Shown here: positions 2,451 through 44,701 of the stretch, one piece after another | Layout of the letters: every line of letters starts with the position of its first letter | Position numbering within the stretch: the first letter of the stretch is position 1 | Origin: a virus | Taxonomy: Duplodnaviria; Heunggongvirae; Uroviricota; Caudoviricetes | Reading direction: 5' to 3' (one strand) | IMG/VR virus record: IMGVR_UViG_2627853910_000001 | DNA: 46,177 nt | Program-made: the position numbers and the translations under genes | The notes under the pieces: model-generated | Told to the model about the DNA's origin: nothing | Database searches by the model: none | Seen by the model: only the letters and a program-made list of their open reading frames with translations

Positions 2451-3387
2451 TCAGGCTTCTGGCGCATTACAGAAAAACCAGAACGGTGCAGATATTCCGA
2501 ATAAAGATAAATTCATACAAAACACAGGGGCCTGTCGTGCATTTAGCGGTCAGACTGATATCGATGGTTCACAAGGTGCATGGTCGACAGTTGCATTTAT
2601 CTCGTGGCTGGAGAATAACGGAGCTTTCCGACATCCATACTGGATGTGTAAAGGGTCATGGTCCTATGCCAGAAACAGGGTTATTACGGATACCGGTTGT
2701 GGAAATATCTGCCTTGCCGGAGCCGTGATTGAGGTTATGGGAACCCGCGGCGCAATGACCATACGCGTTACCACGCCGAGCACGTCCAGCGGTGGCGGAA
2801 TTACTAACGCTCAATTCACTTATATTGATCATGGTGATGCTTATGCCCCCGGCTGGCGACGAGACTACAACACGAAAAACCAGCAGCCTGCATTTGCTTT
2901 AGGGCAAACAGGAAGCAGGGTTGCAAATGATAAAGCTGTTGGCTGGAACTGGAATAGCGGTGTTTATGATGCAGATATCAGCGGTGCATCGACATTAATC
3001 CTCCACTTCAATATGAATACGGGGAGCTGCCCTGCTGTACAGTTCCGCGTGAATTACAGGAACGGCGGTATTTTTTATCGTTCAGCGCGTGATGGTTATG
3101 GATTTGAGGCTAACTGGTCAGAGTTTTACACCACGACCCGCAAACCCTCTGCGGGAGATGTTGGTGCATACACGCAGGCAGAATGTAACTCAAGGTTTAT
3201 TACAGGTATTCGCCTTGGCGGTCTGTCATCTGTTCAGACATGGAATGGTCCCGGCTGGTCTGACAGGTCAGGTTATGTCGTTACGGGTTCAGTTAACGGA
3301 AACCGTGATGAATTAATTGATACAACTCAGGCAAGGCCAATTCAGTATTGCATTCATGGGACGTGGTATAACGCGGGGAGTATTTAA
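2434..3387 (+). CDS. Alternative tail-fibre C-terminal cassette (silent orientation, no own start expected)
   Basis: Begins at the crossover site with residues ([14 protein letters not shown]) matching the join in the expressed fibre (QETVNRAGNAVQKN); conserved C-terminal GTWYN motif in both. Confidence 0.7.
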
Positions 3388-3389
3388 TT

Positions 3390-3923
3390 ATGATGCACTT
3401 AAAAAATATTACTGCTGGCAACCCTAAAACAAAAGAGCAATACCAGCTAACGAAACAATTTAACATCAAATGGCTTTATACAGAGGATGGGAAAAACTGG
3501 TATGAGGAACAAAAGAACTTTCAGCCTGATACGTTGAAAATGGTCTATGACCACAACAACGTTATTATTTGTATTGAAAAGGATGTTTCAGCAATTAATC
3601 CAGAAGGCGCAAGCGTCGTTGAGGTTCCTGATATTACAGCAAATCGCCGGGCTGATATTTCTGGTAAATGGATGTTCAAAGATGGCGTAGTGGTAAAGCG
3701 AACTTATACCGAGGAAGAGCAGAGGCAGCAGGCGGAAAATGAAAAGCAAAGCCTGCTACAGCTCGTTAGGGATAAAACCCAGCTATGGGACTCACAGCTA
3801 CGGCTGGGCATCATTTCCGACGAGAATAAACAAAAATTAACCGAGTGGATGCTCTATGCGCAGAAAGTCGAATCTACAGACACCTCCAGCCTGCCAGTAA
3901 CATTTCCCGAACAACCTGAATGA
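3390..3923 (+). CDS. Tail fibre assembly protein (Tfa), partner of the silent cassette
   Basis: Paralogue of 3952-4482 (shared [12 protein letters not shown]...[12 protein letters not shown]...GKWMFKDG). Confidence 0.8.
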
Positions 3924-3955: not shown

Positions 3956-4482
3956 TCAGGCTTTTGTGGCCATTCAGGATTTGCCGTATCCACACGGCTG
4001 ACCAGAACACTGTAGCGTTCCCATGCTTCCAGTCGTGTGCGTTCCTCGTCTGTTGCCATATTCAGCCTGACAGCGCGTTCCAGCGGCTGGATGACTGATT
4101 CAGCTTCGGAAAGCAATGCGGCCTTTTGTGATTCGCCTTGTTGTTGCTGTTCGTCTGCCGTATAAATCCGTTTAACTACAGCTCCATCCTTAAACATCCA
4201 CTTTCCTGAATCATCAGCGCGGCGGTTGGCTGTAATATCAGGAACCTCAACGACGCTAAAACCTTCAGGGTTAAGCGTGGAGGCATCTTTAGTGATGGCG
4301 ACAATAATATTATTTGCATCGTAAACAATCTTTATTGTGTCTGGCTGAAAGTTTTTCACTTCCTCATACCAGTTTTTATCGTCTTCGGACCATAACCAGA
4401 TAACATCAAAATTCTTTGTTAGCTGATATTGTTCTTTCGTTTTAGGATTTCCAGACTTAATATTTTTTAAATGCTGCATCAT
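3952..4482 (-). CDS. Tail fibre assembly protein (Tfa), currently expressed orientation
   Basis: Immediately follows the tail-fibre gene; Tfa-type N-terminal sequence. Confidence 0.8.
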
Positions 4483-6861
4483 TTACACCTGTGCGACGTT
4501 ATACCATGTGCCATTGATGTATTTTTGTATTGGCCTGAAGATGGCTTCATCATCGCCATCTACTTCACCAATGATTCTTAATCCGGTAATTGCGTGTCCG
4601 GCTTTTTCATAACGACCACCACGCGCCATCAATTGAACAACTCGCGTACCCAGGCGAACATCTCTCACATATCTGGAATCAAAATTGCCATAGTTGCCAG
4701 GAATAACTTGCGAGCCACAAAGCCAGTTACCGTTATTGTCCATGTACGCCTGACCATCGGTGCCATTGGCTGTCCTTGAGTTATTAATCATGTAAAAACC
4801 AAACTGGTAGTTACCAAGTCCACCGACAAAAAATTTGCGTTCTGCATGGTCTTGTCTTAACAAAGCCTGCGCAGAACTTGTTGATACTGCGTTTCTACCA
4901 AAAATGACATTCTGGTTTCGCATATCAATCCATGAGGTTGAGCCACTATTAATAGCAAACCTGTTTGCATACACCCAGGCGTTAGTTGTTATATCTCCTG
5001 TAACATCCAGACCATGCCCCATAGTTATGCGGCCAGTTCTGAGATTAAGCGTAAAGGGACGTAGTGGCCCTATATCACCATTTTCCCCCTCATTCTCTCG
5101 TGTAGGGATGATATGCAGGCATTCTTCAGAACGGCGAAAAATGGCACCAAAAGATGAATTAAATATCCTCAGTGCATTGACTGTCGATATTTTTACTTCA
5201 CTGCTGAAAAGAGCTTTAACAAGAACATACAAAGCATCCCATTTAAGATTCATCAGGTCTTTTGTTGTGGTGCTTTGTTTGCTTCTCCATTTGAAATATT
5301 CATTGCCGTTGTCGCCTGTCTCAAACCACATGTATGAATCAGTGTCACCATCGGCATCATTTTTAAATCCAATCTTCGCCCAGTCAGTATTTCGAATCCA
5401 GGCAAGGATTGAGTCATTTTCAAAAGTAAGCCCACCGGACAAAGTATCGCCATTTTTTTGCACGGCGTTACCAGCCCTGTTTACCGTTTCCTGTAAACCG
5501 AGGTATTCGATAACGGCAGCAACGGTCGATTTCGCAAGAATATCCCGCCCGACTTTTGTCAGGGTTGCCAGGCTGGCGACATCATTCCCCGTAAAATACG
5601 GAAACTTGTCTGCCGCAGTAGCAAGCCCGGCCAGCGCCGTCAGGGTGGCATCTTTCGGTTGCTTACCCGCAAGCGCGTTAGTCATGGTGGTCGCAAAATT
5701 CGGGTCGTTGCCCAACGCCGCAGCCAGCTCGTTCAGCGTATTCAGTGCGTCAGGCGACGAGTCCACGAGGGCAGCGATCGCAGCCATAACATAAGCCGTG
5801 CTTGCGATCTGAGTATTGTTAGTACCTTTTGGCGCAGTTGGTGTTGTTGGCGTTCCGGTCAGCGCAGGACTGTTTAAGGGCGCTTTCTTGTTCGTTTCAT
5901 CCATTACCACCTTTACCGCTTTCGATGTCGCGGCCAGTGTTTCAGACGTGCTGTTGGTTGCACTACTGAGCTGAGTGATTCCCCTTACTGTCAGTGAAGC
6001 TACAGGCACATTTGTTATCTGCTCCCACGAATGCGTGTGATTGGACGGAGCCTTTCCGGCCGCAAGATCATACGCTGCCTTAACAGCCTTTGGTGTTGCG
6101 GCCAGCGTTTCCGAATCACTGTTAGTGGCGCTACTGAGCTGAACAATCCCTTTTCGCGCCGTGGTAGCGTCCTGTGCGGTGTATTTGCCATTAGCCAGGT
6201 CATATGCTGCCTTAACAGCCTTAGGCGTCGCAGCAAGCGTTTCAGACGAGCTATTGGTGGCGCTGCTAAGTTGAACAAAGCCTTTTGAGGTTAAAGTTGC
6301 ATCGGGATGATTACGTGATTGCTCATGTTTCACAATGGCTTGCTTAAGCCGCTTTGCTGAAACAGCAAGGGAATCATCTGTACCTGCATCAATTTCTTGT
6401 TCATTAGCAAACCTTGCCACCCCAACAACAGTTTCGGTCGCGGGAGGATTAATAAACTCAATATCACCAAATGTAATATTTTTAGTATCAAGAGTTTTAA
6501 TTGCTATATCACTTGATATTAAAGCGATAGTAGATGATGCTTTATTTATTATTGCTTGTTCTTGTGAGTATACAGCAAACAACGTACCCTTATTCGTATA
6601 CAATCCTATTGTATGGACAACATACTCATCTTTACTATCATCCTTCGCTGTTACATGAATTGTATCAGGGGAAACAACTTTGCCACCTATTGTGGTAAGT
6701 CGTTTTATTTCGTTTGTTATATTTGTTTGTGAAGTTGACGTGACATAATATCTACTACCTAAACCAACAGAAACAATCTCAACTTTATTTGTTCCTGTTT
6801 TGTTGGCATTAACCAGCTCCTGACGCCCGGCGTCAGTCATCGTAAATAATAATTTACTCAC
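4483..6861 (-). CDS. Tail fibre protein (constant N-terminal part plus invertible C-terminal part)
   Basis: 792 aa; tandem ~40-aa fibre repeats (GxVQLSSATNSxSETLAATPKAVKAAYDLA); crossover site inside the gene. Confidence 0.85.
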   Translation of the reverse strand: MSKLLFTMTDAGRQELVNANKTGTNKVEIVSVGLGSRYYVTSTSQTNITNEIKRLTTIGGKVVSPDTIHVTAKDDSKDEYVVHTIGLYTNKGTLFAVYSQEQAIINKASSTIALISSDIAIKTLDTKNITFGDIEFINPPATETVVGVARFANEQEIDAGTDDSLAVSAKRLKQAIVKHEQSRNHPDATLTSKGFVQLSSATNSSSETLAATPKAVKAAYDLANGKYTAQDATTARKGIVQLSSATNSDSETLAATPKAVKAAYDLAAGKAPSNHTHSWEQITNVPVASLTVRGITQLSSATNSTSETLAATSKAVKVVMDETNKKAPLNSPALTGTPTTPTAPKGTNNTQIASTAYVMAAIAALVDSSPDALNTLNELAAALGNDPNFATTMTNALAGKQPKDATLTALAGLATAADKFPYFTGNDVASLATLTKVGRDILAKSTVAAVIEYLGLQETVNRAGNAVQKNGDTLSGGLTFENDSILAWIRNTDWAKIGFKNDADGDTDSYMWFETGDNGNEYFKWRSKQSTTTKDLMNLKWDALYVLVKALFSSEVKISTVNALRIFNSSFGAIFRRSEECLHIIPTRENEGENGDIGPLRPFTLNLRTGRITMGHGLDVTGDITTNAWVYANRFAINSGSTSWIDMRNQNVIFGRNAVSTSSAQALLRQDHAERKFFVGGLGNYQFGFYMINNSRTANGTDGQAYMDNNGNWLCGSQVIPGNYGNFDSRYVRDVRLGTRVVQLMARGGRYEKAGHAITGLRIIGEVDGDDEAIFRPIQKYINGTWYNVAQV
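5480..5513. repeat. gix/hix-like crossover site, right boundary, inside tail-fibre gene
   Basis: TTCCTGTAAACCGAGGTATTCGATAA, about 23/26 to the Gin gix consensus as recalled. Confidence 0.7.
5905..6300. repeat. Three tandem ~120-bp repeats inside the tail-fibre gene
   Basis: Repeated DNA blocks (TTAACAGCCTTxGGxGTxGCxGCxAGCGTTTCxGA...) encoding the repeated fibre motif. Confidence 0.5.
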
Positions 6862-30452: not shown

Positions 30453-30718
30453 TCATCATCTCCTGCCGCACATACAACCTCACAAAAAACATCAGCGGAA
30501 TGTTTCTCCTTGAACGAATGACGCTCAAAACCGCACTCAATATCAGGCGCAAAAACATCCACCACATACGGTCTTTCAGAATGTTCGTTTTCCCAACGAT
30601 AAACCGTAGTGACGTTGAAATGTTTTAACGCTTCACGGAACTCAACGCTGCCCGTCAGGTTTTTTGAGGTCAGGTATTGCAGGAGGTTTTTTACTACTTC
30701 ACGGTCTTGTACTTTCAT
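30449..30718 (-). CDS. Hypothetical protein, first gene after repeated promoter cassette copy A
   Basis: ATG immediately follows the repeat, which supplies GGAGA RBS. Confidence 0.45.
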   Translation of the reverse strand: MKVQDREVVKNLLQYLTSKNLTGSVEFREALKHFNVTTVYRWENEHSERPYVVDVFAPDIECGFERHSFKEKHSADVFCEVVCAAGDDE

Positions 30719-30835
30719 CGGGTTATCTCCGGTTTAACCAGGGCGGGTATCGCTCGGTTTCGGGTATAACCTTAGGAAATTTTTTCCCACCTGTAAAGCA
30801 CTTTTTATATAAATCTATAATTATATAATTCTATG
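30719..30835 (-). repeat. Repeated promoter/leader cassette, copy A (~117 bp)
   Basis: Near-identical (1 mismatch) to 44539-44655 and ~95% to 35440-35547; ends at the start codon of the downstream gene. Confidence 0.85.
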
Positions 30836-31725: not shown

Positions 31726-31801
31726 TGGTGGCCCCTACCGGATTTGAACCGATGACCGTGCGATTATGAGTCGCCTGCTCTAACCACTGAGCTAAGGGGC
31801 C
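31726..31801 (-). tRNA. tRNA with CAU anticodon (Ile2/lysidine-type or Met)
   Basis: 76-nt cloverleaf GGCCCCTTAGCTCAGTGGTTAGAGCAGGCGACTCATAATCGCACGGTCATCGGTTCAAATCCGGTAGGGGCCACCA; acceptor and D-arm identical to E. coli ileX-type tRNA as recalled; encoded CCA. Confidence 0.85.
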
Positions 31802-31894: not shown

Positions 31895-31970
31895 TGGTTG
31901 ATGCGTGCGCCCATGAGAAAAGCGCATAGAATGTTGTAACTATATATTTATATAATTATAGAAATATATA

Positions 31971-32180
31971 TTACTTTGGACAGTTGATTTCCCATGCCCT
32001 GTTATGAGCCAGAATATCTTTCTTTGTCTGTCGGTCCATAACATCGATGTCGTGATCAGTCAGGTAGATGGGCTTTACCCAATCACAGGCGGTATCAACC
32101 ACCACCGGGACGCTTCCACGACTCCCGCAGCTCGCGATCAACATCGTCATCAGCCATATGGTTAACACTCTGCTGTACAT
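31971..32180 (-). CDS. o-spanin (Rz1-like lipoprotein), overlapping 3-prime end of i-spanin
   Basis: Signal peptide with lipobox LIASC; overlaps the i-spanin gene. Confidence 0.55.
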   Translation of the reverse strand: MYSRVLTIWLMTMLIASCGSRGSVPVVVDTACDWVKPIYLTDHDIDVMDRQTKKDILAHNRAWEINCPK

Positions 32181-34012: not shown

Positions 34013-34315
34013 TCATGCCACAGCCCCTCTCAACGGCTTAACTTTGGCTAATAAGGTGTTAAACAACATGGAGTTAGGATTCATGCCAAATGGCAATTCC
34101 GGTTTAGCGGAGTAGTACAGGCAACCATTTATTTTCCTGGTTGTTATCTGTCCTTCGGCAACCATGCTTCTCAGTCTGCAACGCATAGAGTTCTGCGACA
34201 CACCAATGTGCTCCGCGATTACGTCCACTTTTGAACATGGGTGATCGGTCAGGAAATTAATCACATCTTGGGGGTTAATAATTTTGCGTTTCATTGTCGA
34301 GGCGTCCTTATACAT
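34013..34315 (-). CDS. Small winged-helix/HTH DNA-binding protein (candidate regulator)
   Basis: 100 aa; HTH-like segment SKVDVIAEHIGVSQNSMRCRLRSMVAEGQI. Confidence 0.4.
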   Translation of the reverse strand: MYKDASTMKRKIINPQDVINFLTDHPCSKVDVIAEHIGVSQNSMRCRLRSMVAEGQITTRKINGCLYYSAKPELPFGMNPNSMLFNTLLAKVKPLRGAVA

Positions 34316-34371
34316 TTATATAAATATATAATTCTATATACGGCGGGAGATATCCCGCCGTAGGCTTACTG

Positions 34372-35439
34372 TCAGGCTTTCAATAGCGATTCTTTCAGAT
34401 ATCGGGCATCAGCCAGGGCGTTTGGAGTAATCTTGCGAACCCATGCATTACGGGTTGGACTCCACTTAAAGGCGCGTGATTTAAGCAGCGAACGAATGTT
34501 TGCCTCTGGTTTGCCAGGGAAATAAAACAGGATGCGGTTATCCTCTGGATCTATCTCCATAGAAAAGCCGTCGTATTCTTCGCGCTGTGCTCCTGTTACA
34601 GACTTGACCGATTCAAGCTCCTTAATACGGCTCTGTAGTCGTTTGATTTCGGCCTTATTGTTGCTCAGTGCGTATGAAGGGAATCCGATGTGCCCACAGA
34701 AATCTCCGGCCAGTAACTCTTTGGCTTCGCTTTCTGTAAACCTGAGATCGATTAATGCAGAAAGCTGCTGTAATTGGTCTTTTTTGTATTTGCGAATGGC
34801 CTTATTTGCGGCCTTCATTTTGACGTGTGACTTCATGCAGCCTTGCAGCTTACGAAGCAACTTAAATAGCGCATCAGGATCATCAGACGAAATTCCATTA
34901 CGACCAACACCTGCGGCTTTGCTCTCGTAGTGTGATGCTTTACTTTCGCATTCAACAAACGCTTTTCTGAATAACGCATCAGCTTTAGACAAACGGCGGC
35001 GATGGCCTTTCGCGCTATAATGGTCAACTAAAATCGGCTGGCCTAACGGGATCACATCCAACAGGTCATGCGCTCGCTTATGCGCTACCGCACCTTCTTT
35101 TCTGGCTTTTTCTGCACGAGCAATATATCGGGCAAGACGCGCGTTCTGGCGTTCCTGATAGGTGTTTACGTAATCATCTCCGCGCTGCTGCTGTTCAAGC
35201 CATGCTTTGCGCAGATCTTCTGTTACGTCCACCAGCTCCGCAGGGATACAACCAGTTTGGGCTTCATAAGAGTAACCATCCTCATAGATACGCCCATCGT
35301 CTTCAACAAAGAAAAAGGTTTCGTGCTCATCGCTTTTGACCATACGACCATTAACATGGCGTAATAGGTAGCCAGTATCAGTGCTTAACAGGCTGTTAGG
35401 GTTGTTGATCCAGTCAGAAATAATTACTTGTTTATTCAT
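34372..35439 (-). CDS. Conserved hypothetical protein (possibly DUF3560-type; recalled, unverified)
   Basis: 355-aa ORF starting right after repeat copy B; basic helical central region. Confidence 0.45.
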   Translation of the reverse strand: MNKQVIISDWINNPNSLLSTDTGYLLRHVNGRMVKSDEHETFFFVEDDGRIYEDGYSYEAQTGCIPAELVDVTEDLRKAWLEQQQRGDDYVNTYQERQNARLARYIARAEKARKEGAVAHKRAHDLLDVIPLGQPILVDHYSAKGHRRRLSKADALFRKAFVECESKASHYESKAAGVGRNGISSDDPDALFKLLRKLQGCMKSHVKMKAANKAIRKYKKDQLQQLSALIDLRFTESEAKELLAGDFCGHIGFPSYALSNNKAEIKRLQSRIKELESVKSVTGAQREEYDGFSMEIDPEDNRILFYFPGKPEANIRSLLKSRAFKWSPTRNAWVRKITPNALADARYLKESLLKA

Positions 35440-35547
35440 CAGATTTCTCCGGTTTAACCAGGGCGGGTATCGCTCGGTTTCGGGTATAACCTTAGGAAAT
35501 TTTTTCCCACCTGTAAAGCACTTTTTATATAAATCTATAATTATATA
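35440..35547 (-). repeat. Repeated promoter/leader cassette, copy B
   Basis: ~108 bp shared with copies A and C; lies between Q-like gene and next gene. Confidence 0.85.
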
Positions 35548-35608
35548 TTTATAGATTTTCGATGTTCCCGATGTCTACACACCATCAAAACAGCTCAAAA
35601 TGACACTT

Positions 35609-35986
35609 TCACTCTCTTCGCTTTTTCAAATAGTCGACAACATACGCCCTGGCTTTTGCCAGCTTCCGGCGATACTGTCTGAGACTAAGAGAAAGGGCGT
35701 GGGCTTTATCAATATGCGGTGCATTTATGTCGAGGCCCCGAATCTCCCACGCCCCGTATTCAATTCGGACAACCAGCGCCGCAGTCTCATCAACTACCGT
35801 GAGGGCCGTCACAGCTCCCTCGATACTGGTTTCCAGTGAGTCATTTGGTGCGCCGCCCCCTCCGGTAAACTGGCAACGCGTAACCATCATCATTTCTAAC
35901 ATCGACGCGAAACCGCTACGGGCGTTGCAGCCATTGCGCACCCACAGCGCCCATAGCTCAAACAAGCTATCCAGATCGCGTCTCAC
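35609..35986 (-). CDS. Putative late antiterminator (Q-like)
   Basis: N-terminal LFELWALWVRNG resembles Q/QuuD N-terminus as recalled; last early gene before promoter copy B; lacks Zn-finger cysteines. Confidence 0.35.
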   Translation of the reverse strand: MRRDLDSLFELWALWVRNGCNARSGFASMLEMMMVTRCQFTGGGGAPNDSLETSIEGAVTALTVVDETAALVVRIEYGAWEIRGLDINAPHIDKAHALSLSLRQYRRKLAKARAYVVDYLKKRRE

Positions 35987-38133: not shown

Positions 38134-38790
38134 ATGAAAAGCAACGACGAGAACATCAAGAAAGAAATAGGTCTGCGCATTCAGACTCTACGGAAACAAT
38201 CCGGCATGACTGCCGGAGATCTCCAGCAAGTCACTGGAATAGGCTTAAGCACCTTGCAGAACTATGAGGCCGGATTAAGACAACCATCGATACCTGCCAT
38301 CAAGAAAATCGCGCACGCCCTGAAAGCATCAGCGCCTTATATCGCGTGCTTAACAGATAACCCGTTCCCACCCCAGAATACTAACGCTCCTGTTATTCCT
38401 GGGCTTGTAGCTATAAAAAATGACATAGCATCGCACGCCGGAGAAAAGCCAGTGCTGGCGATAGAACAGGAGATTCTACGAAGCAAGAACATCAACCCAT
38501 CGTCTCTGTCAGTTCTCCAGAGCAACGATGAGTTAATGTCACCAACAATATCCCCTGGCTCCCAAGTCCTGATTAATACAGACGATACAGAGATTCATGA
38601 GGGGATCTATGCCCTTGAAGACAGAAATGGCCTGGTTGTTTTGAGGCACTGTAGAGTCATACCGGGTGACAATGCTGTTATGCTGTCAACCGAAAGGGAT
38701 GCTGAAATGAACACTAAGCATCTGAATAACGAGGAATTTAAGCGTTATAAAGTTCTTGGCCGCGTAGTTAGTGTTGTCAACTGGTTATGA
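38134..38790 (+). CDS. CI/LexA-like repressor (N-terminal HTH, C-terminal S24 peptidase-like domain)
   Basis: HTH (MTAGDLQQVTGIGLSTLQNYEAG) plus C-terminal autocleavage-like domain. Confidence 0.75.
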   Translation: MKSNDENIKKEIGLRIQTLRKQSGMTAGDLQQVTGIGLSTLQNYEAGLRQPSIPAIKKIAHALKASAPYIACLTDNPFPPQNTNAPVIPGLVAIKNDIASHAGEKPVLAIEQEILRSKNINPSSLSVLQSNDELMSPTISPGSQVLINTDDTEIHEGIYALEDRNGLVVLRHCRVIPGDNAVMLSTERDAEMNTKHLNNEEFKRYKVLGRVVSVVNWL

Positions 38791-39257: not shown

Positions 39258-39283
39258 CTGCAAGCGGGCTAACGCCCGCTTAT

Positions 39284-39392
39284 ATGATTATAGATTTATA
39301 TAATTATATAAAACGCTTTCCATCCGCCAAAAAGTTGGTTATGCTTACCTCGTTCTATAAATATAGATTTATAGAATTATATAACCAAACAC
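39284..39392 (+). promoter_or_regulatory. AT-rich iterons upstream of parA (candidate centromere/operator)
   Basis: ATTATAGATTTATATA at 39287-39302 and variant at 39362-39377. Confidence 0.45.
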
Positions 39393-39407
39393 ATGGAGTC
39401 TCGACAA

Positions 39408-40061
39408 ATGACTATCTCTGTAGGTATTTTCAACGGAAAAGGCGGCGTAACCAAATCAACAATTGCCCGTGCTTTAGCAGTTGCTTATGCAAAGGCTGGC
39501 TGGAATGTATGCCTGATCGATATGGATGTGCTTAACGGAACGGTAACGCGTTGGGTACAACGCAGAATGGCCAACAATATCGAACCAGCAATCGCGGCGC
39601 AGCCGTGCGGCACACCATCACAAGTCCAGAAAATCATCGAATCAGAAGTATACGACCTGGTTATCGTTGATGGCGGTGCCTACGCATCTGAATCAGTACC
39701 GAAGCTATCTGAATTTCTGGATATGGTTATTTTGCCAACCCGATTCTCTACCGATGACCTGGAAACCACCGTTAACACTGCTCACGGCATCGTTAAAAAG
39801 GGTGTGCCAATCAAGAAAATTTGCATGGTGTTTTCCGGCGCGGCTGAAAATGAAGCTGACTATATTGAAGCCCAAGAGTACCTGGCTAATACGCCATACT
39901 TTGTTGTCGATAAGTACATTCCCCACAAGCCAGCTCTGAGCAAAGCTCAGGATAAGGGCTTAAGCCTCATTGAATGCTCATACGTTGCGCCACGCAAAAA
40001 GGCAGACGACGTTATTCAGGGGATTATCAACCAGCTTGAGGCTCTGACTACTGCCGCGTAA
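39408..40061 (+). CDS. parA: ParA-family partition ATPase
   Basis: Deviant Walker A GKGGVTKST; start set at ATG with GGAG RBS (track ORF begins 39393). Confidence 0.8.
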   Translation: MTISVGIFNGKGGVTKSTIARALAVAYAKAGWNVCLIDMDVLNGTVTRWVQRRMANNIEPAIAAQPCGTPSQVQKIIESEVYDLVIVDGGAYASESVPKLSEFLDMVILPTRFSTDDLETTVNTAHGIVKKGVPIKKICMVFSGAAENEADYIEAQEYLANTPYFVVDKYIPHKPALSKAQDKGLSLIECSYVAPRKKADDVIQGIINQLEALTTAA

Positions 40062-40104
40062 TATATAATTATAGTTTTATAGATTTATATAAGAGGGGAT
40101 ACAC

Positions 40105-40750: not shown

Positions 40751-40772
40751 AAAAAAGGCCCCCGAAGGGGCC
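40751..40772 (-). terminator. Terminator GGCCCC-GAA-GGGGCC with T-run on minus strand
   Basis: GC stem; A6 on plus strand upstream gives T6 after hairpin on minus. Confidence 0.5.
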
Positions 40773-40778
40773 TAATCG

Positions 40779-40901
40779 CTACTTGCTGCTAATGTTTATC
40801 GTCACATTCAGAGCGTTATCAGTAATCTTCCAACCCTCCCCATGTGGCGTAAACAAAGCTCCAGTAACAACGATAAAAATACACATACAGTATTTTTTCA
40901 T
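40779..40901 (-). CDS. Small hydrophobic peptide (40 aa), candidate type I toxin or small membrane protein
   Basis: MKKYCMCIFIVVTGALFTPHGEGWKITDNALNVTINISSK; terminator 7 nt downstream. Confidence 0.35.
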   Translation of the reverse strand: MKKYCMCIFIVVTGALFTPHGEGWKITDNALNVTINISSK

Positions 40902-40966
40902 TGTGTGGCCCTTACAGGCCGTTTCACGGCATCTCCACCGACGAAAATGACGCGAGAGCAAGCACT

Positions 40967-40983
40967 CCGCTTGTGCTTGCGTG
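40967..40983. repeat. 17-nt direct repeat CCGCTTGTGCTTGCGTG (copy 1, in putative 5-prime UTR of small ORF)
   Basis: Identical 17-mer at 41216-41232; copy 1 sits in an 8-bp hairpin. Confidence 0.7.
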
Positions 40984-41149
40984 TACGGCAAGTGGATGAT
41001 CCTTTCCTTAAAGTCGGTGCCCGGGTGCGAATCGGCGAAAAGGCCCCAAGCCATATTACACGTCCTCGCCTTCATAATGAAGGAATAACAATTGCTTTTA
41101 TTACATGTAATTACATCCGAAGAAGTTAAAAAACTTCATTCTGCATGAA

Positions 41150-41349: not shown

Positions 41350-41552
41350 TGTCTCTGTTAAAATCCCGCCGTATTGACATGAATGCGCCATTGGTGGACA
41401 CTTTCCGAGCCGTAGCAAAATCTACGGCCGGGATTGGCGTCCCGATAATCATCATGGCGCATACCGCGTTAGCGGTTTTTTTATGCGTAAAGCACGGCTA
41501 CACCCGAATTATGGTGGGGCGTGCGGGGGAGCCGTAAGGCTCGCCGGGTATC

Positions 41553-41840
41553 ATGATGACCGGTTACGCCAACCCTGTACGTCTCACCACCTCACTGATT
41601 GGCGTCAGCGGTGGTGATTATTCCAATATCAAAACTGGAACTATCATCATGACAAACTTACCCCATGACTATTACGTCAACCTCGTAAAGATCCTTCTCA
41701 AGAAAGCCTCATACGCCGATAAATTCCGCCTGGCTGAAATCATCGAGCGCGAAGCTATGCGCATCGCCAGCAACGATAACGCTGTTTCTGACGCAAAAAT
41801 CTCCCTCGTAACCAAAGTAGTTATGGGAGGTGCAAAATGA
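41553..41840 (+). CDS. Hypothetical protein translationally coupled to antirepressor (icd-like position)
   Basis: Stop overlaps antirepressor ATG (ATGA). Confidence 0.4.
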   Translation: MMTGYANPVRLTTSLIGVSGGDYSNIKTGTIIMTNLPHDYYVNLVKILLKKASYADKFRLAEIIEREAMRIASNDNAVSDAKISLVTKVVMGGAK

Positions 41841-43012
41841 AAACGCTTCCGACCGTTAACACCCTACAACCTATCCTGCATAACCAGCTCCCCGTTATCA
41901 CTACTGAACTACTGGCAAAGCTATACGGCACAGACGTTGATAACATCAAAAAAAATTACTCACGTAACGCAAACCGCTTTATTGAAGGAAAGCATTTTTT
42001 CAAAGTGGCTGGCGATGAGTTAAAAACTTTGCGAGTGACTTTAAGTCACTCACAAAATTTGCGGGTAGCTTTAAACTACTCACAAAATACCATCTCCCCA
42101 AAAACCCGCACCCTCATCCTCTGGACAGAACGCGGGGCTGCACGTCACGCCAAAATGCTCGAAACCGATCAGGCGTGGGATGTATTCGAACGGCTGGAAG
42201 ACTGCTATTTCAACCAGAACGCGAAAACGGCAGCGACCGTAACCGTCTCGCCAAACAATGCTCGTGAGGTCGTCGATACGCTCAACGCCAAACCGATGTT
42301 TTACATTAAGGTGTGCAATAACGAGCCACTCACAACCTCAGCCGATGTTGCCCAGGCATTCAGCACCACAAACAATTCCATCGTTATGGCCATCGATGCG
42401 TTACGCATTCCTCGCACAGCTGCGGCACGTCATTTCTTTAAAGAGCAACGACCGCTGGAAGGAAGCGACCGCGAAATAACAATCTATCGCATGACAAAAG
42501 ACGGATTTACCTTGCTCATGGAAAGTATCGACGGTCCAGGCGTGAAGGATATCAAGCTGGCCTACATTGAAGCCTTTAACGCTATCAGCAGCGTGTTAAA
42601 AACACAGTACGAGCGCGATCTGGCTAAACGACTGTACCAGGAAAAAACGATTATCCGCGCGGCAACAGAGCATAATCGGCTATTAACGGAACCGAACTAC
42701 AGGAAGGAACTAATCAAGGAGTTTGACAAGGCAACAGGGAAAACCAAAGCGGCGCTAAATCTGCCAGCAATGACTCAGGAAAATGTGATATCAGCCTTAC
42801 TTCTTGATCTACTCAGAAACGCCAGAGCACTTATCAGCTTTGACGAAAACCTGAATCCTCAACTCAAGCTACTACCACCGACAGGCAAAGTAGTCGACCA
42901 GGCTGATCACAACAGCATACTCAGCGTACTGGATGCAAACCTGCCAACCAGGACACTACAGGATCTGATAAAAACATGTGCTGATAAGCTGGCACAGAAA
43001 AGCAGACCATAA
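41837..43012 (+). CDS. Antirepressor (ORF6N/Rha-like domains)
   Basis: N-terminal ITTELLAKLYGTDVDNIKKNYSRNANRF and central PMFYIKVCNNEPLTTSADVAQAF segments typical of phage antirepressors. Confidence 0.7.
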   Translation: MKTLPTVNTLQPILHNQLPVITTELLAKLYGTDVDNIKKNYSRNANRFIEGKHFFKVAGDELKTLRVTLSHSQNLRVALNYSQNTISPKTRTLILWTERGAARHAKMLETDQAWDVFERLEDCYFNQNAKTAATVTVSPNNAREVVDTLNAKPMFYIKVCNNEPLTTSADVAQAFSTTNNSIVMAIDALRIPRTAAARHFFKEQRPLEGSDREITIYRMTKDGFTLLMESIDGPGVKDIKLAYIEAFNAISSVLKTQYERDLAKRLYQEKTIIRAATEHNRLLTEPNYRKELIKEFDKATGKTKAALNLPAMTQENVISALLLDLLRNARALISFDENLNPQLKLLPPTGKVVDQADHNSILSVLDANLPTRTLQDLIKTCADKLAQKSRP

Positions 43013-43016
43013 CTAC

Positions 43017-43050
43017 AAGGGGCTACGGCCCCTTACTCTTTTCTCTCTTA
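43017..43050 (+). terminator. Terminator after antirepressor gene
   Basis: 7-bp stem followed by T-rich tract. Confidence 0.45.
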
Positions 43051-43750
43051 TCAACGCCAGAGACTTTCTGAAAATCCTTTCGAATAGCGTCAGCATCACG
43101 CGCCAAGCCCATACTGGAATGCGTCGCCATATGACGAAAATGATCAACTGCCGGAAACAAAGAAATAATGGACCCAATAGCTTGCAGCAAACTCGCTTTT
43201 CTACGCATCATAATTCCACCATAACCGATAACCACCCTTCAGACACAACCCCCCCTCCCCCCATACAGGGTGCCCTTTACCGGAGTTCCGGCCCCTTCTC
43301 AAAAGCATCAAAAAAAGCTCGAGATCGAGTACCGGAACTCATGCCACCAGATAGCTCCACATCGTTTCCAATGCTTCGCCGCCGTGTGCGCCCTGTGGCC
43401 CACAATCATGCCATTGGTCGTCTGATATACCTTCTTCTGCTCATAGAGCACAGGCGAGTTGTCGCACTCCTGCCTTTCTCAGACTCGACTTAGTTTAGAT
43501 CGTTGTTCCTGGCTTGCGTCAGCACACTTTCCCCTTGTACGCATACCCGCGCGCCACTTCGCCCAAAAACACCGAACCCAACGAAGTGGCAAAGACAACG
43601 ACGCGAGCGTGAGTCTGAAATGGGCACCAGTAAAAAAGGGGTTGCAGGCGCAAAAAGATTTGATTATCTTTAGACGCAAGAAAGCCGCCCCAATCAAGAG
43701 GTGTCTTTTTAAATCCAGCCTACCAAGCAAGATTTAAATTTCAGACTGAA

Positions 43751-43775
43751 AACCGCCCGGCAAGGCGGTTTTTGT
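43751..43775 (+). terminator. Rho-independent terminator (AACCGCC-CGGCAA-GGCGGTT, T5)
   Basis: 7-bp stem and TTTTT on plus strand. Confidence 0.55.
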
Positions 43776-43821
43776 CTTTCTGGCGCTTACATTACACCAC
43801 CATAAAACGATCCGTAAAGGA

Positions 43822-44094
43822 TCATTTGATCCCTTGTTCCAATTCTGACGACACTTTAACCTTTTCCCATACAAGGGTTTGCAGCCTTAACAGAATCGCA
43901 TCTTTATCAAGATGTGAAAGATCCTTAACCATATCGTCAAACGACAGAACGCGAATGGCCATCTCAATGACCCTCGGCGGCTCACCCTTCTCATATCGCT
44001 TATATGTAGCCAACGATATCCCAAACTCTTCGGCGGCTCGCTCCTGCGTCCAGTTCATCCCACGACGCCATAATTTCAATTCATAACCCGTCAT
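43822..44094 (-). CDS. XRE-family HTH transcriptional regulator
   Basis: HTH (MNWTQERAAEEFGISLATYKRYEKG); start at ATG with GGAGG RBS. Confidence 0.6.
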   Translation of the reverse strand: MTGYELKLWRRGMNWTQERAAEEFGISLATYKRYEKGEPPRVIEMAIRVLSFDDMVKDLSHLDKDAILLRLQTLVWEKVKVSSELEQGIK

Positions 44095-44122
44095 AGCATC
44101 CTCCGCGCACAATATTAACACT

Positions 44123-44149
44123 CACAAAGTGTCAAAATGACACTTTGTG
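44123..44149. promoter_or_regulatory. 27-bp perfect palindrome CACAAAGTGTCA-AAA-TGACACTTTGTG upstream of XRE regulator
   Basis: 12-bp arms with 3-bp spacer. Confidence 0.55.
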
Positions 44150-44157
44150 CATTGTGT

Positions 44158-44538
44158 TTACTTAACGAGAAATAAAAATGGTTTATTGTTCGGAGGTGTA
44201 ATCGGGGCTGGCTCGCTTTTGCTCATGCGATCAGTGTACCAGGCCAGCTCCTTGTCAAAGTAAGCCTGATTAAAATAGGCCATGAATGTAGTTTCAAATC
44301 CATAACGACCGCTAATACGCAGCATCTGATTGCCGTTCTCTGTTTCCAGATATACCTGGGCACGTTCCTGATTCTCCTTCAGCCAGGTTAAAGCCTCGTC
44401 GCACGAGGACACACGATACTCATCATCGTAGCCGTCATCGATGCGGCTTGAAGAAGAACGGCAAATCACGCCAACAGAACCAGCCAGGATAGTTTGAATT
44501 TTAAGGAAAGCGTTTTTGCGGATTTTAATCATGCTCAT
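44158..44538 (-). CDS. Hypothetical protein, first gene after repeated promoter cassette copy C
   Basis: 126-aa ORF; ATG immediately follows the repeat. Confidence 0.45.
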   Translation of the reverse strand: MSMIKIRKNAFLKIQTILAGSVGVICRSSSSRIDDGYDDEYRVSSCDEALTWLKENQERAQVYLETENGNQMLRISGRYGFETTFMAYFNQAYFDKELAWYTDRMSKSEPAPITPPNNKPFLFLVK

Positions 44539-44655
44539 CGGGTTATCTCCGGTTTAACCAGGGCGGGTATCGCTCGGTTTCGGGTATAACCCTAGGAAAT
44601 TTTTTCCCACCTGTAAAGCACTTTTTATATAAATCTATAATTATATAATTCTATG
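44539..44655 (-). repeat. Repeated promoter/leader cassette, copy C
   Basis: 116/117 identical to copy A. Confidence 0.85.
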
Positions 44656-44660
44656 AGCAC

Positions 44661-44686
44661 AAAAAAGCCCCTTTGCAACAGGGGCT
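44661..44686 (-). terminator. Terminator after HigA-like gene
   Basis: 7-bp stem followed by T6 on minus strand. Confidence 0.5.
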
Positions 44687-44701
44687 TATCATTCGTTCTG
44701 A

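What the first reader, a model, noticed from the sequence alone, without database searches (positions are those of the whole stretch)
43822..44655. Promoter copy C operon with an XRE regulator, a 27-bp perfect palindrome, and a 15-nt match next to the Q-like gene
Copy C drives a 126-aa unknown followed by an XRE-family regulator whose upstream region holds the perfect palindrome CACAAAGTGTCA-AAA-TGACACTTTGTG (44123-44149). One arm plus spacer (TCAAAATGACACTTT, 44132-44146) recurs exactly at 35595-35609, between the Q-like gene and promoter copy B. This regulator may act at the late promoter as well as on itself.
Basis: seen in the sequence. Interest (0 to 1): 0.45.

Follow-up and report, generated by a model that had tools for sequence, protein, structure and literature searches.

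The report
Self-regulating XRE repressor and its operator
The 27-bp palindrome is most likely the binding site through which a small phage-plasmid regulator controls its own gene, an ordinary arrangement, while the 15-base match near the other promoter looks like a leftover of a deleted gene, not a second binding site.

Summary
Both observations are real. The perfect 12+3+12 palindrome lies at 44123-44149, and TCAAAATGACACTTT recurs exactly at 35595-35609.

The window is a ~48-kb E. coli phage-plasmid (ParA, P1-type c4/ant immunity, myovirus genes).

The palindrome is almost certainly the XRE protein's own operator:
- Its core, AAAGTGTCA-N3-TGACACTTT, sits upstream of the XRE gene in every family member, whatever gene lies upstream.
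- Two bases downstream is a TGnTAnnnT (extended -10) motif whose five diagnostic bases are invariant in 7 sequences.
- 32 of 42 homologues carry AAGTG-N9-CACTT within 130 nt of their ATG.
- The inner operator bases co-vary with the start of the recognition helix.
- The operator is centred near -31 of the predicted internal promoter, so I infer negative autoregulation.

The link to "late promoter B" is not supported:
- Site B has only one half-site, and the CACTT partner is absent.
- It descends from codons (E-R/K-L/V-I-L-S) of a 146-152-aa gene that the E. coli lineage deleted. Relatives read 12-13 of 15 there, inside coding sequence.
- Each of five relatives has only one full operator.
- About ten unrelated exact repeats of 15 nt or more occur in the window.

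Verdict: an ordinary autoregulated XRE module, of low interest.

The more unusual thing is next door: a conserved ~595-nt block without ORFs, apparently structured, at 43235-43830.

The parts
44535..44655 (-). Promoter/leader repeat unit, copy C. It contains TATA-rich 8-bp-period repeats (about 44625-44656), a -35-like TTTACA (44612-44617), a 17-nt spacer holding the inverted repeat GGAAAnnnTTTCC, a weak -10-like TAGGGT (44589-44594), and a conserved ~50-nt leader running to the SD and ATG of ORF126.
   Evidence: Three copies, 90-99% identical (family D2; alignment A5). Conserved in Salmonella. The sigma-70 consensus scan finds no strong promoter here, so promoter function and activator dependence are inferred.
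44158..44538 (-). ORF126, 126 aa, function unknown. It is variable cargo upstream of XRE.
   Evidence: phrog_8090, E 8e-90, unknown function; no Pfam hit. Present in the K. aerogenes and Salmonella relatives. Replaced by a HicB-like gene plus a 146-aa gene in Yokenella, and absent in Citrobacter.
44123..44149 (.). Operator of the XRE protein: a perfect 12+3+12 palindrome with the conserved core AAAGTGTCA-N3-TGACACTTT (44126-44146). It is centred about -31 from the predicted P_xre start.
   Evidence: The core is conserved in 7 family sequences while the flanks diverge (A3). 94% of the pair cells stay symmetric, and 3 outer pairs changed on both sides. Family-wide motif AAGTG-N9-CACTT in 32 of 42 homologue loci.
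44112..44120 (-). Predicted extended -10 element TGTTAATAT of the internal promoter P_xre. The predicted transcription start is near 44105.
   Evidence: Across 7 relatives the invariant bases in this stretch are exactly T, G., T, A..., T, that is TGnTAnnnT (A3). Function is inferred. The tool's -35/-10 scan does not model extended -10 promoters.
43822..44094 (-). XRE-family HTH regulator, 90 aa. The SD GGAGG is at 44100-44104.
   Evidence: Pfam HTH_3, E 6e-7; phrog_6962, E 1.5e-45. AF2 model with five helices, pLDDT 79. Best structural matches are HipB, HigA2, SinR, Aca1/2, RsaL and MqsA, all with E >= 0.1.
43747..43774 (.). Bidirectional terminator-like hairpin, closing the XRE unit on one side and the ant side on the other.
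   Evidence: One search flagged it on the + strand only; the minus-strand (XRE-side) reading is my inference from the GGCGGTTTT end of the stem. Invariant stem in 6 relatives (A6).
35595..35609 (.). 'Site B': the 15-nt exact match, made of one operator half-site, the spacer and TGA. Most likely a relic of a deleted coding sequence and not an operator.

Best explanation
The palindrome is the cognate operator of the 90-aa XRE-family HTH protein encoded just downstream.

Proposed mechanism:
1. The protein, presumably a dimer, binds the two AAAGTG half-sites, whose AAGTG pentamers start 14 bp apart.
2. The site spans about -44 to -18 of an internal extended -10 promoter (TGTTAATAT, 44112-44120).
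3. Binding there represses transcription of the protein's own gene (negative autoregulation).
4. The same bound complex would also sit in the path of transcripts reading through from promoter copy C and ORF126.

The module is an autonomous unit in the accessory region of a ~48-kb E. coli phage-plasmid. ORF126 is exchangeable cargo, not a functional partner.

The 15-nt copy at 35595-35609 is a lone half-site inherited from codons of a gene that the E. coli lineage deleted. It is most likely not a regulatory target.

Shown: the sequence features, their conservation, and the co-variation between operator and protein.
Inferred: binding itself, dimerisation, the promoter and its start point, and the sign of regulation.
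For: 1. The HTH_3 domain scores above the Pfam cut-off.

2. The core AAAGTGTCA-N3-TGACACTTT lies 30-45 nt upstream of the XRE ATG in E. coli, K. aerogenes, Yokenella, Salmonella (one G-to-A change) and Citrobacter (left arm partly degenerate). The upstream gene differs among them: ORF126, a HicB-like gene plus a 146-aa gene, or higBA with a terminator. The spacer and flanks vary.

3. The invariant bases TG.TA...T, two bases after the right arm, match exactly the diagnostic positions of an extended -10.

4. 32 of 42 homologue loci (40-77% identity, many genera, unrelated contexts) carry [AT][AGT]GTG-N9-CAC[CT][TA] within 130 nt of their ATG. The background is 10 hits in 70 kb, about 0.02 per such stretch. 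Several loci have a second copy 50-70 nt further upstream.

5. The inner operator bases track the start of the recognition helix:
- GTGTCA with GISLATYKRYEKG
- GTGACA with GISLR[TS]YKRYE
- GTGCAR with G[KV]CLR.YK[AD]YE
- GTGCC with [ED]IGLRTYKRYE

6. The palindrome is not followed by a U-tract on the sense strand (tail AGUGUUAAUAUU).

7. Site B:
- it is only a half-site;
- it is homologous to the E-[RK]-[LV]-I-L-S codons of the 146-152-aa gene found in all five non-E. coli relatives;
- there is one full operator per genome in the window and in those relatives.
Against: - No binding or expression data exist.
- The outer 3 bp of each arm change symmetrically (CAC/GTG, CGC/GCG, CTC/GAG). The Salmonella arm mismatch is a G.U pair on the sense strand. 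Both fit an RNA or DNA hairpin as well as a dimer operator.
- The predicted P_xre leader in the window is only about 12 nt.
- In p48-type plasmids a 570-bp insert separates the operator and -10 from the XRE gene.
- The sigma-70 scan finds no canonical promoter.
- The regulator has no detectable target other than itself, which leaves its biological role open.
- For site B, an exact 15-mer match to the palindrome has an a priori expectation of only ~0.003. The 24-nt block around it is invariant in five E. coli-lineage sequences while the adjoining bases vary.
Confidence: 0.8

Rival explanations
1. The palindrome acts as an RNA hairpin in the ORF126-XRE read-through transcript, either instead of or in addition to being a DNA operator. 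It could be a 3' stabiliser of ORF126 mRNA, an RNase III site, a weak attenuator, or an RNA site bound by the HTH protein as described for Aca2.
For: - A 12-bp stem is predicted. The 91-nt context folds at -27.7 kcal/mol, z = -3.1.
- Symmetry is kept through double changes in the 3 outer pairs.
- The Salmonella mismatch is G.U on the sense strand.
- In Citrobacter the right arm runs into T6.
- In p48 the element lies between convergent genes.
- The terminator scan flags it on the + strand.
Against: - The sequence AAGTG...CACTT is conserved, not only the pairing.
- The motif recurs upstream of homologues in unrelated contexts, often as two copies flanking a promoter, and co-varies with the recognition helix.
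- There is no U-tract on the sense strand in most relatives.
- If P_xre starts near 44105, the hairpin is absent from the XRE-only transcript.
- Yokenella has a C.A mismatch on the sense strand.
Confidence: 0.12
2. One reading: XRE also binds site B (35595-35609) and so regulates promoter copy B or the end of the Q-like gene, coupling the accessory module to late-type transcription.
For: - Exact 15-nt identity that includes a full half-site and the spacer. The a priori expectation is ~0.003.
- The position is intergenic, upstream of promoter B.
- The 24-nt block is invariant in 5 E. coli-lineage sequences while the next 28 nt differ at about 9 positions.
- Relative to the ancestral coding sequence, the two bases that differ are exactly those that complete the half-site.
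Against: - The second half-site is missing: GCTGT in place of CACTT.
- The site lies about 120 nt upstream of the predicted promoter-B start, and copies A and C have no equivalent.
- The sequence derives from codons of a deleted gene and is not operator-like in any relative.
- Each relative has a single operator.
- About 10 unrelated exact matches of 15 nt or more exist in the window.
- The E. coli set contains only two effective haplotypes.
Confidence: 0.08
3. ORF126 and XRE form a functional pair in which XRE controls or neutralises ORF126. This could be a toxin-antitoxin pair like HigBA, or an anti-defence gene with an Aca-like repressor.
For: - The gene order (unknown gene, then HTH) and the strong shared promoter unit resemble higBA and acr-aca operons.
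- Structural neighbours include HigA2, HipB, MqsA and Aca1/Aca2.
- The module lies in a variable cargo region next to higBA.
Against: - ORF126 is absent or replaced in the Yokenella and Citrobacter relatives, which keep XRE and its operator.
- More distant homologues have no consistent neighbour.
- There is no operator in promoter copy C.
- ORF126 matches no toxin family.
Confidence: 0.07

Closest known systems
Autoregulated XRE/Cro-C1-type HTH proteins with a palindromic operator in their own promoter: MqsA, HipB, HigA, RsaL
   Same: A small HTH_3 protein. An inverted-repeat operator overlaps its own promoter. The inferred action is negative autoregulation. These proteins are also its nearest sequence and structure neighbours.
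   Different: There is no toxin or other conserved partner gene. The operator type is distinct (AAGTG-N9-CACTT). The ~40-aa two-helix C-terminal extension is not matched in solved structures. Similarity to each named protein is weak (E >= 0.06).
Anti-CRISPR-associated repressors Aca1/Aca2
   Same: An HTH gene follows a variable small cargo gene behind a strong phage promoter. It binds an inverted repeat. From my own knowledge, Aca2 also binds an RNA stem-loop in its own mRNA, which parallels a transcribed palindrome just upstream of the HTH gene's ribosome-binding site.
   Different: Here the operator lies between the cargo gene and the regulator, not in the cargo promoter. Nothing indicates that ORF126 is an anti-defence protein. 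The structural match is only generic.
Restriction-modification controller (C) proteins such as C.Esp1396I and C.AhdI
   Same: An HTH of about 80-100 aa binds a symmetric box with a short central spacer directly upstream of its own gene. Some homologues here have two adjacent or flanking boxes.
   Different: The window has no adjacent restriction or modification genes. The box sequence differs. The fold match is low (C.Esp1396I at rank 31, probability 0.47).
TF-smORF induction modules of plasmid-like phages (Silpe et al. 2023, PMC10432266)
   Same: A small XRE-type factor is encoded in the variable region near the repA and par genes of a phage-plasmid whose main repressor is cI-like.
   Different: Those factors activate a counter-oriented small ORF that inactivates cI. 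Here there is no conserved divergent small ORF, and the operator position suggests repression of the factor's own gene.

Membership tests
XRE/Cro-C1 HTH transcription factors (Pfam HTH_3, PF01381) | An HTH_3 domain scoring above the curated cut-off | tested here: met
   E 6e-7, 29.8 bits against a 23-bit cut-off; HTH_31 27.6 against 27. The AF2 model has the helix pattern of the fold. Fold hits are XRE-type regulators.
Autoregulated XRE repressors | A symmetric operator at the protein's own promoter, conserved with the protein | tested here: met
   Seven family sequences. 32 of 42 homologue loci carry AAGTG-N9-CACTT within 130 nt of the ATG, and the inner bases co-vary with the recognition helix.
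Autoregulated XRE repressors | Sequence-specific binding as a dimer and repression of its own transcription | not testable with these tools
   Needs EMSA or footprinting and reporter assays. Repression is inferred from the operator position (about -31; at the start site or 5'UTR in distant homologues).
Type II toxin-antitoxin system (HigBA/MqsRA-like) formed by ORF126 and XRE | A conserved adjacent toxin partner | tested here: not met
   ORF126 has no toxin domain. It is missing or replaced in the Yokenella and Citrobacter relatives that retain XRE and its operator.
acr-aca type operon | The regulator's inverted repeat lies in the promoter of the upstream cargo gene | tested here: not met
   There is no full or half operator in copy C at 44535-44655.
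Intrinsic (Rho-independent) terminator | A G+C-rich hairpin followed at once by a U-tract on the transcribed strand | tested here: not met
   The sense-strand tail is AGUGUUAAUAUU, and 5 of the 12 stem pairs are G-C. The scan flags only the + strand, which carries no upstream gene in this window.
Second XRE operator at site B | Both half-sites (AAGTG-N9-CACTT) present, and conserved in relatives | tested here: not met
   The right pentamer reads GCTGT (4 mismatches to the full operator). The site lies within coding sequence and is not operator-like in 5 relatives.
Q-type antiterminator (label given to the 125-aa ORF 35609-35986) | Sequence or fold membership in a Q family | tested here: inconclusive
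   No Pfam hit and no PDB sequence or profile hit. The AF2 model has pLDDT 77. The Foldseek top hits are Q21 (6p1c, 6p1a, 6jny) with probability 0.8-0.94 but E 0.3-0.9 and TM about 0.5.

The most novel reading that the evidence does not exclude
The XRE protein may be a dual DNA- and RNA-binding regulator of the Aca2 kind. It would bind the palindrome as a DNA operator of its own promoter, and also as the 12-bp RNA hairpin present only in read-through transcripts from the late-type promoter copy C. That would set a different fate for ORF126-XRE mRNA in the plasmid state and in lytic growth. The symmetric changes in the outer stem positions would then reflect an RNA constraint.
Probability: 0.08. 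Interest if true: 0.5.

Novelty: new member of a known kind. Interest (0 to 1): 0.2.

Why it matters
The finding gives a testable operator motif, AAGTG-N9-CACTT, for an uncharacterised family of small orphan XRE regulators. The motif comes with clade-specific inner bases that track the recognition helix. These regulators are spread across plasmids, phage-plasmids and defence or cargo islands of Enterobacterales. That helps annotation, and it offers a compact natural set of operator-protein specificity variants.

The analysis also removes a tempting but unsupported link between this regulator and the phage's late-type promoters.

As biology it is the standard negative-autoregulation design, so a specialist would not be surprised.

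Tried and rejected
- Motif-centred scan of viral contigs with AAGTGWCANNNTGWCACTT. At this pattern size most hits are chance, so it says nothing about specificity.
- Search for a conserved partner gene of XRE homologues. The neighbours include a RelE-like gene, an N6-methylase fragment, a YhgA-like transposase and unknowns, with no pattern. Other homologues sit near defence-type ATPases or OLD/UvrD genes, again without a consistent partner.
- Enrichment of half-sites in the window: none.
- Search for further operators in the window and in 5 relatives: only weak coding-region matches with 4-5 mismatches.
- Rfam scans. Nothing was found at the palindrome or in 42950-44700. The whole-window hits are unrelated to the finding.
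- Toxin-antitoxin and Aca-like readings were rejected on synteny and operator position.
- Intrinsic terminator on the sense strand was rejected because there is no U-tract.
- Literature search for the Yersinia phages vB_YpM_39/41/44: no paper held.
- One Python job timed out and was rewritten.

Full report
**Context**

The window is most of a ~48-kb E. coli phage-plasmid.
- It is 98.6% identical to Yersinia phages vB_YpM_39/41/44, which have 49-kb circular genomes.
- 62 plasmids of about 47-52 kb, almost all from Escherichia (one Klebsiella), match at 95-100% identity over at least 80% of the query.
- It encodes:
  - a ParA ATPase (39393-40061);
  - a cI/LexA-like repressor (38134-38790; HTH_3 domain plus a weak, below-cut-off Peptidase_S24 match);
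  - an ORF6N/Rha antirepressor (41837-43012), preceded by isrK and C4 antisense RNA matches;
  - a HigB/HigA pair.
- All genes of the finding are on the minus strand.

**Observation**

- The palindrome CACAAAGTGTCA-AAA-TGACACTTTGTG is at 44123-44149 and is perfect.
- It lies in the 63-nt gap between ORF126 (44158-44538) and the XRE gene.
- The XRE start is the ATG at 44094, with GGAGG 7 nt upstream. All homologues begin MTG[FY]EL.
- The 15-mer TCAAAATGACACTTT recurs exactly at 35595-35609. It abuts the stop codon of the 125-aa ORF 35609-35986, upstream of promoter repeat copy B.
- Promoter repeats A, B and C (30715-30835, 35435-35555, 44535-44655) are 90-99% identical.
- A terminator at 44665-44687 isolates copy C from higBA.

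**What the palindrome is**

*Relatives of the same phage-plasmid family* were recovered from Salmonella, K. aerogenes, Yokenella and Citrobacter. Their XRE proteins are 68-77% identical to the window's.
- In all of them the core AAAGTGTCA-N3-TGACACTTT lies 30-45 nt upstream of the XRE ATG.
- The spacer varies: TTT, AAT, ATG or ATT.
- The flanks diverge, and the upstream gene differs: ORF126, a HicB-like gene plus a 146-aa gene, or higBA followed by a terminator and TATA repeats.
- The element therefore travels with XRE, not with ORF126.
- Symmetry is kept in 94% of pair cells. The three outer pairs show changes on both sides, for example CAC/GTG, CGC/GCG and CTC/GAG.

*A promoter element follows the palindrome.* Two bases beyond the right arm, the only invariant bases are T, G., T, A..., T. 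That is the signature of an extended -10 element (TGnTAnnnT, from established promoter knowledge). In the window it reads TGTTAATAT at 44112-44120.
- The predicted transcription start is therefore near 44105.
- The operator then spans about -44 to -18 and is centred at -31. That is a repressor-type position.

*More distant homologues* came from a genome-wide search, which gave 34 further Enterobacterales loci at 40-66% identity.
- Counting all 42 loci held, 32 carry [AT][AGT]GTG-N9-CAC[CT][TA] within 130 nt upstream of the ATG.
- The background is 10 hits in 70 kb of flanking DNA.
- In most of them the site ends 6-16 nt before the ATG, just after a TATAAA/TATAAT-like box.
- Several have a second copy 50-70 nt further upstream.
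- The inner operator bases sort with the residues at the start of the recognition helix:

| Inner operator bases | Start of recognition helix |
|---|---|
| GTGTCA | GISLATYKRYEKG |
| GTGACA | GISLR[TS]YKRYE |
| GTGCAR | G[KV]CLR.YK[AD]YE or GVSLRTWKVYE |
| GTGCC | [ED]IGLRTYKRYE |

This is the pattern expected when a protein and its DNA site evolve together. It is the strongest argument that the palindrome is the XRE operator.

*The protein.*
- It has HTH_3 above the Pfam cut-off.
- It models as five helices.
- It resembles HipB, HigA2, SinR, Aca1/2, RsaL and MqsA only generically.

**Alternative readings of the palindrome**

- *Sense-strand terminator.* This is unlikely. The tail is AGUGUUAAUAUU, and the relatives have A-rich tails.
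- *RNA hairpin role in read-through transcripts.* This is not excluded. The stem is stable, the outer pairs co-vary, and the Salmonella mismatch is G.U on the sense strand. But conservation of the motif's sequence, and its recurrence as promoter-flanking pairs in unrelated loci, favour DNA recognition.
- *Toxin-antitoxin or Aca-like pairing with ORF126.* ORF126 is dispensable in relatives, and promoter C holds no operator.

*Natural variants.*
- p48-type E. coli plasmids carry a 570-bp insert with a 141-aa ORF on the opposite strand. It begins immediately after the -10 hexamer.
- vB_YpM_41/44 carry a 323-bp miniature element between the XRE SD and ATG. It has 27-bp inverted ends beginning GGGG and a 5-bp target duplication.
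- Those phages still form plaques, so XRE is probably not needed for lytic growth (inference).

**Site B**

- Against the full operator it has 4 mismatches. The left half-site and spacer are exact, but the right conserved pentamer reads GCTGT instead of CACTT.
- All five non-E. coli relatives have a 146-152-aa gene between the 125-aa ORF and promoter B. The E. coli lineage lacks it.
- The window's 35556-35640 stretch aligns to the middle of that gene, at the codons for E-[RK]-[LV]-I-L-S-Y-L. There the relatives read GAAAGGCTCATTTTGAGC, GAAAAGGTCATTTTGAGC or GAAAAGCTCATTTTGAGC.
- So 12-13 of the 15 bases were already present as coding sequence.
- Each relative has one full operator and none near promoter B.
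- Exact repeats of 15 nt or more between unrelated places are common in this window: about 10, against 2.7 expected for random sequence.
- Two points keep a small probability alive:
  - The a priori expectation of a 15-mer match to the palindrome is only ~0.003.
  - A 24-nt block around site B is invariant in five E. coli-lineage sequences while the neighbouring bases vary. However, this set has only two effective haplotypes.
- I put functional XRE action at site B at about 0.08.

**The 'Q-like' label and the promoter copies**

- The 125-aa protein has no Pfam or PDB sequence match.
- Its model's best Foldseek hits are the Q21 antiterminator, followed by sigma region 4, at non-significant E-values. 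Homologues occur in 36-41-kb Vibrio phages. The label is plausible but unproven.
- Each promoter unit contains TATA-rich 8-bp-period repeats, TTTACA, a 17-nt spacer with GGAAAnnnTTTCC, a weak -10 (TAGGGT or TAAGGT), and a conserved ~50-nt leader.
- The promoter scan of the copy-C region finds no strong sigma-70 promoter, which fits dependence on an activator (inference).

**Comparison with known systems, and novelty**

The module works like the many autoregulated XRE repressors: MqsA, HipB, HigA, RsaL, Aca and C proteins.
- It meets the domain criterion and the own-operator criterion.
- It fails the partner-gene criteria of toxin-antitoxin, Aca and C-protein systems.
- It lacks the divergent small ORF of TF-smORF modules (PMC10432266).

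It is a new member of a known kind. The operator motif and its specificity classes are new detail, not a new principle.

**Verdict**

- Interest is 0.2.

Noticed in passing
window 43235-43830 (minus strand), directly downstream of the XRE gene and its terminator: A ~595-nt block without ORFs is 89-91% identical in the Klebsiella, Yokenella, Citrobacter and Salmonella relatives, which is more conserved than the neighbouring genes. RNAalifold predicts 185 pairs, 9 of them with compensatory double changes. These include a hairpin GCCACTTCG..CGAAGTGGC (GCTATCTCG..CGAGATCGC in Klebsiella) and a GAAA-loop hairpin (CATTG/CGATG, GTACTG/CGGTAC, GTGCTG/CGGCGC). The G.U pairs point to the minus strand. 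The block ends in an invariant G6AG7 tract predicted to pair with an upstream CCCCUUUUU. It has no Rfam match, is unannotated in all 62 plasmids that hold it, and is found only in this family. It may be a large structured RNA or an RNA-primed origin.
   Followed up: partly
window 30805, 31932-31979, 34300-34339, 35525, 39280-39392, 40061-40100, 44625: Thirteen copies of TATA-rich units with an 8-bp period (TTATAnAn) occur at eight places. They lie at the upstream edge of promoter copies A, B and C and on both sides of parA (39393-40061). They may be dispersed binding sites for a partition or repressor protein, as with the scattered centromere sites of N15 (a comparison from my own knowledge).
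   Followed up: no
window 44595-44611, and the same positions in copies A and B: The 17-nt spacer between TTTACA and the weak -10 of all three promoter copies holds the inverted repeat GGAAA-nnn-TTTCC. Salmonella keeps it with a different centre (AAA to ATA). From memory, this resembles the dyad in the spacer of P1 late promoters.
   Followed up: no
window 41409-41594 (+), 40751-41048 (-), 31729-31801 (-): Rfam matches above the gathering score: isrK (41409-41482) and C4 antisense RNA (41507-41594) lie just upstream of a 95-aa ORF and the ORF6N/Rha antirepressor, forming a P1/P7-type immI module. There is also a ryfA-like RNA and a tRNA.
   Followed up: no
window 35556-35640, compared with L006 9082-9525 and L007 7473-7913: The E. 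coli lineage has deleted most of a 146-152-aa gene that lies between the 125-aa ORF and promoter B in all other relatives. The last ~25 nt of the E. coli 125-aa ORF derive from the middle of that gene, read in another frame.
   Followed up: yes
L003 1896-2218 (Yersinia phage vB_YpM_41; corresponds to window 44095): A 323-bp miniature inverted-repeat element has inserted between the SD and ATG of the XRE gene. It has 27-bp ends (GGGGTTCCGTGGGCATTTCTGCGATAA) and a 5-bp duplication (ATAGC), which looks Tn3-type. A similar end sequence lies upstream of an XRE homologue at the edge of L014.
   Followed up: partly
L002 1896-2465 (E. coli plasmid p48, NZ_CP023368.1; corresponds to window 44095-44111): A ~570-bp replacement carries a 141-aa ORF on the opposite strand. 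It lies between the XRE gene and the operator, and its junction falls immediately after the predicted -10 hexamer. The same plasmids have the compensated operator variant CGC...GCG.
   Followed up: partly
window 3386-3746 and 4123-4483, with 1798-2352: 361-nt inverted repeats (70% complementary) flank a segment next to a Hin/Cin-type invertase gene and tail-fibre genes. This looks like an invertible host-range segment.
   Followed up: no
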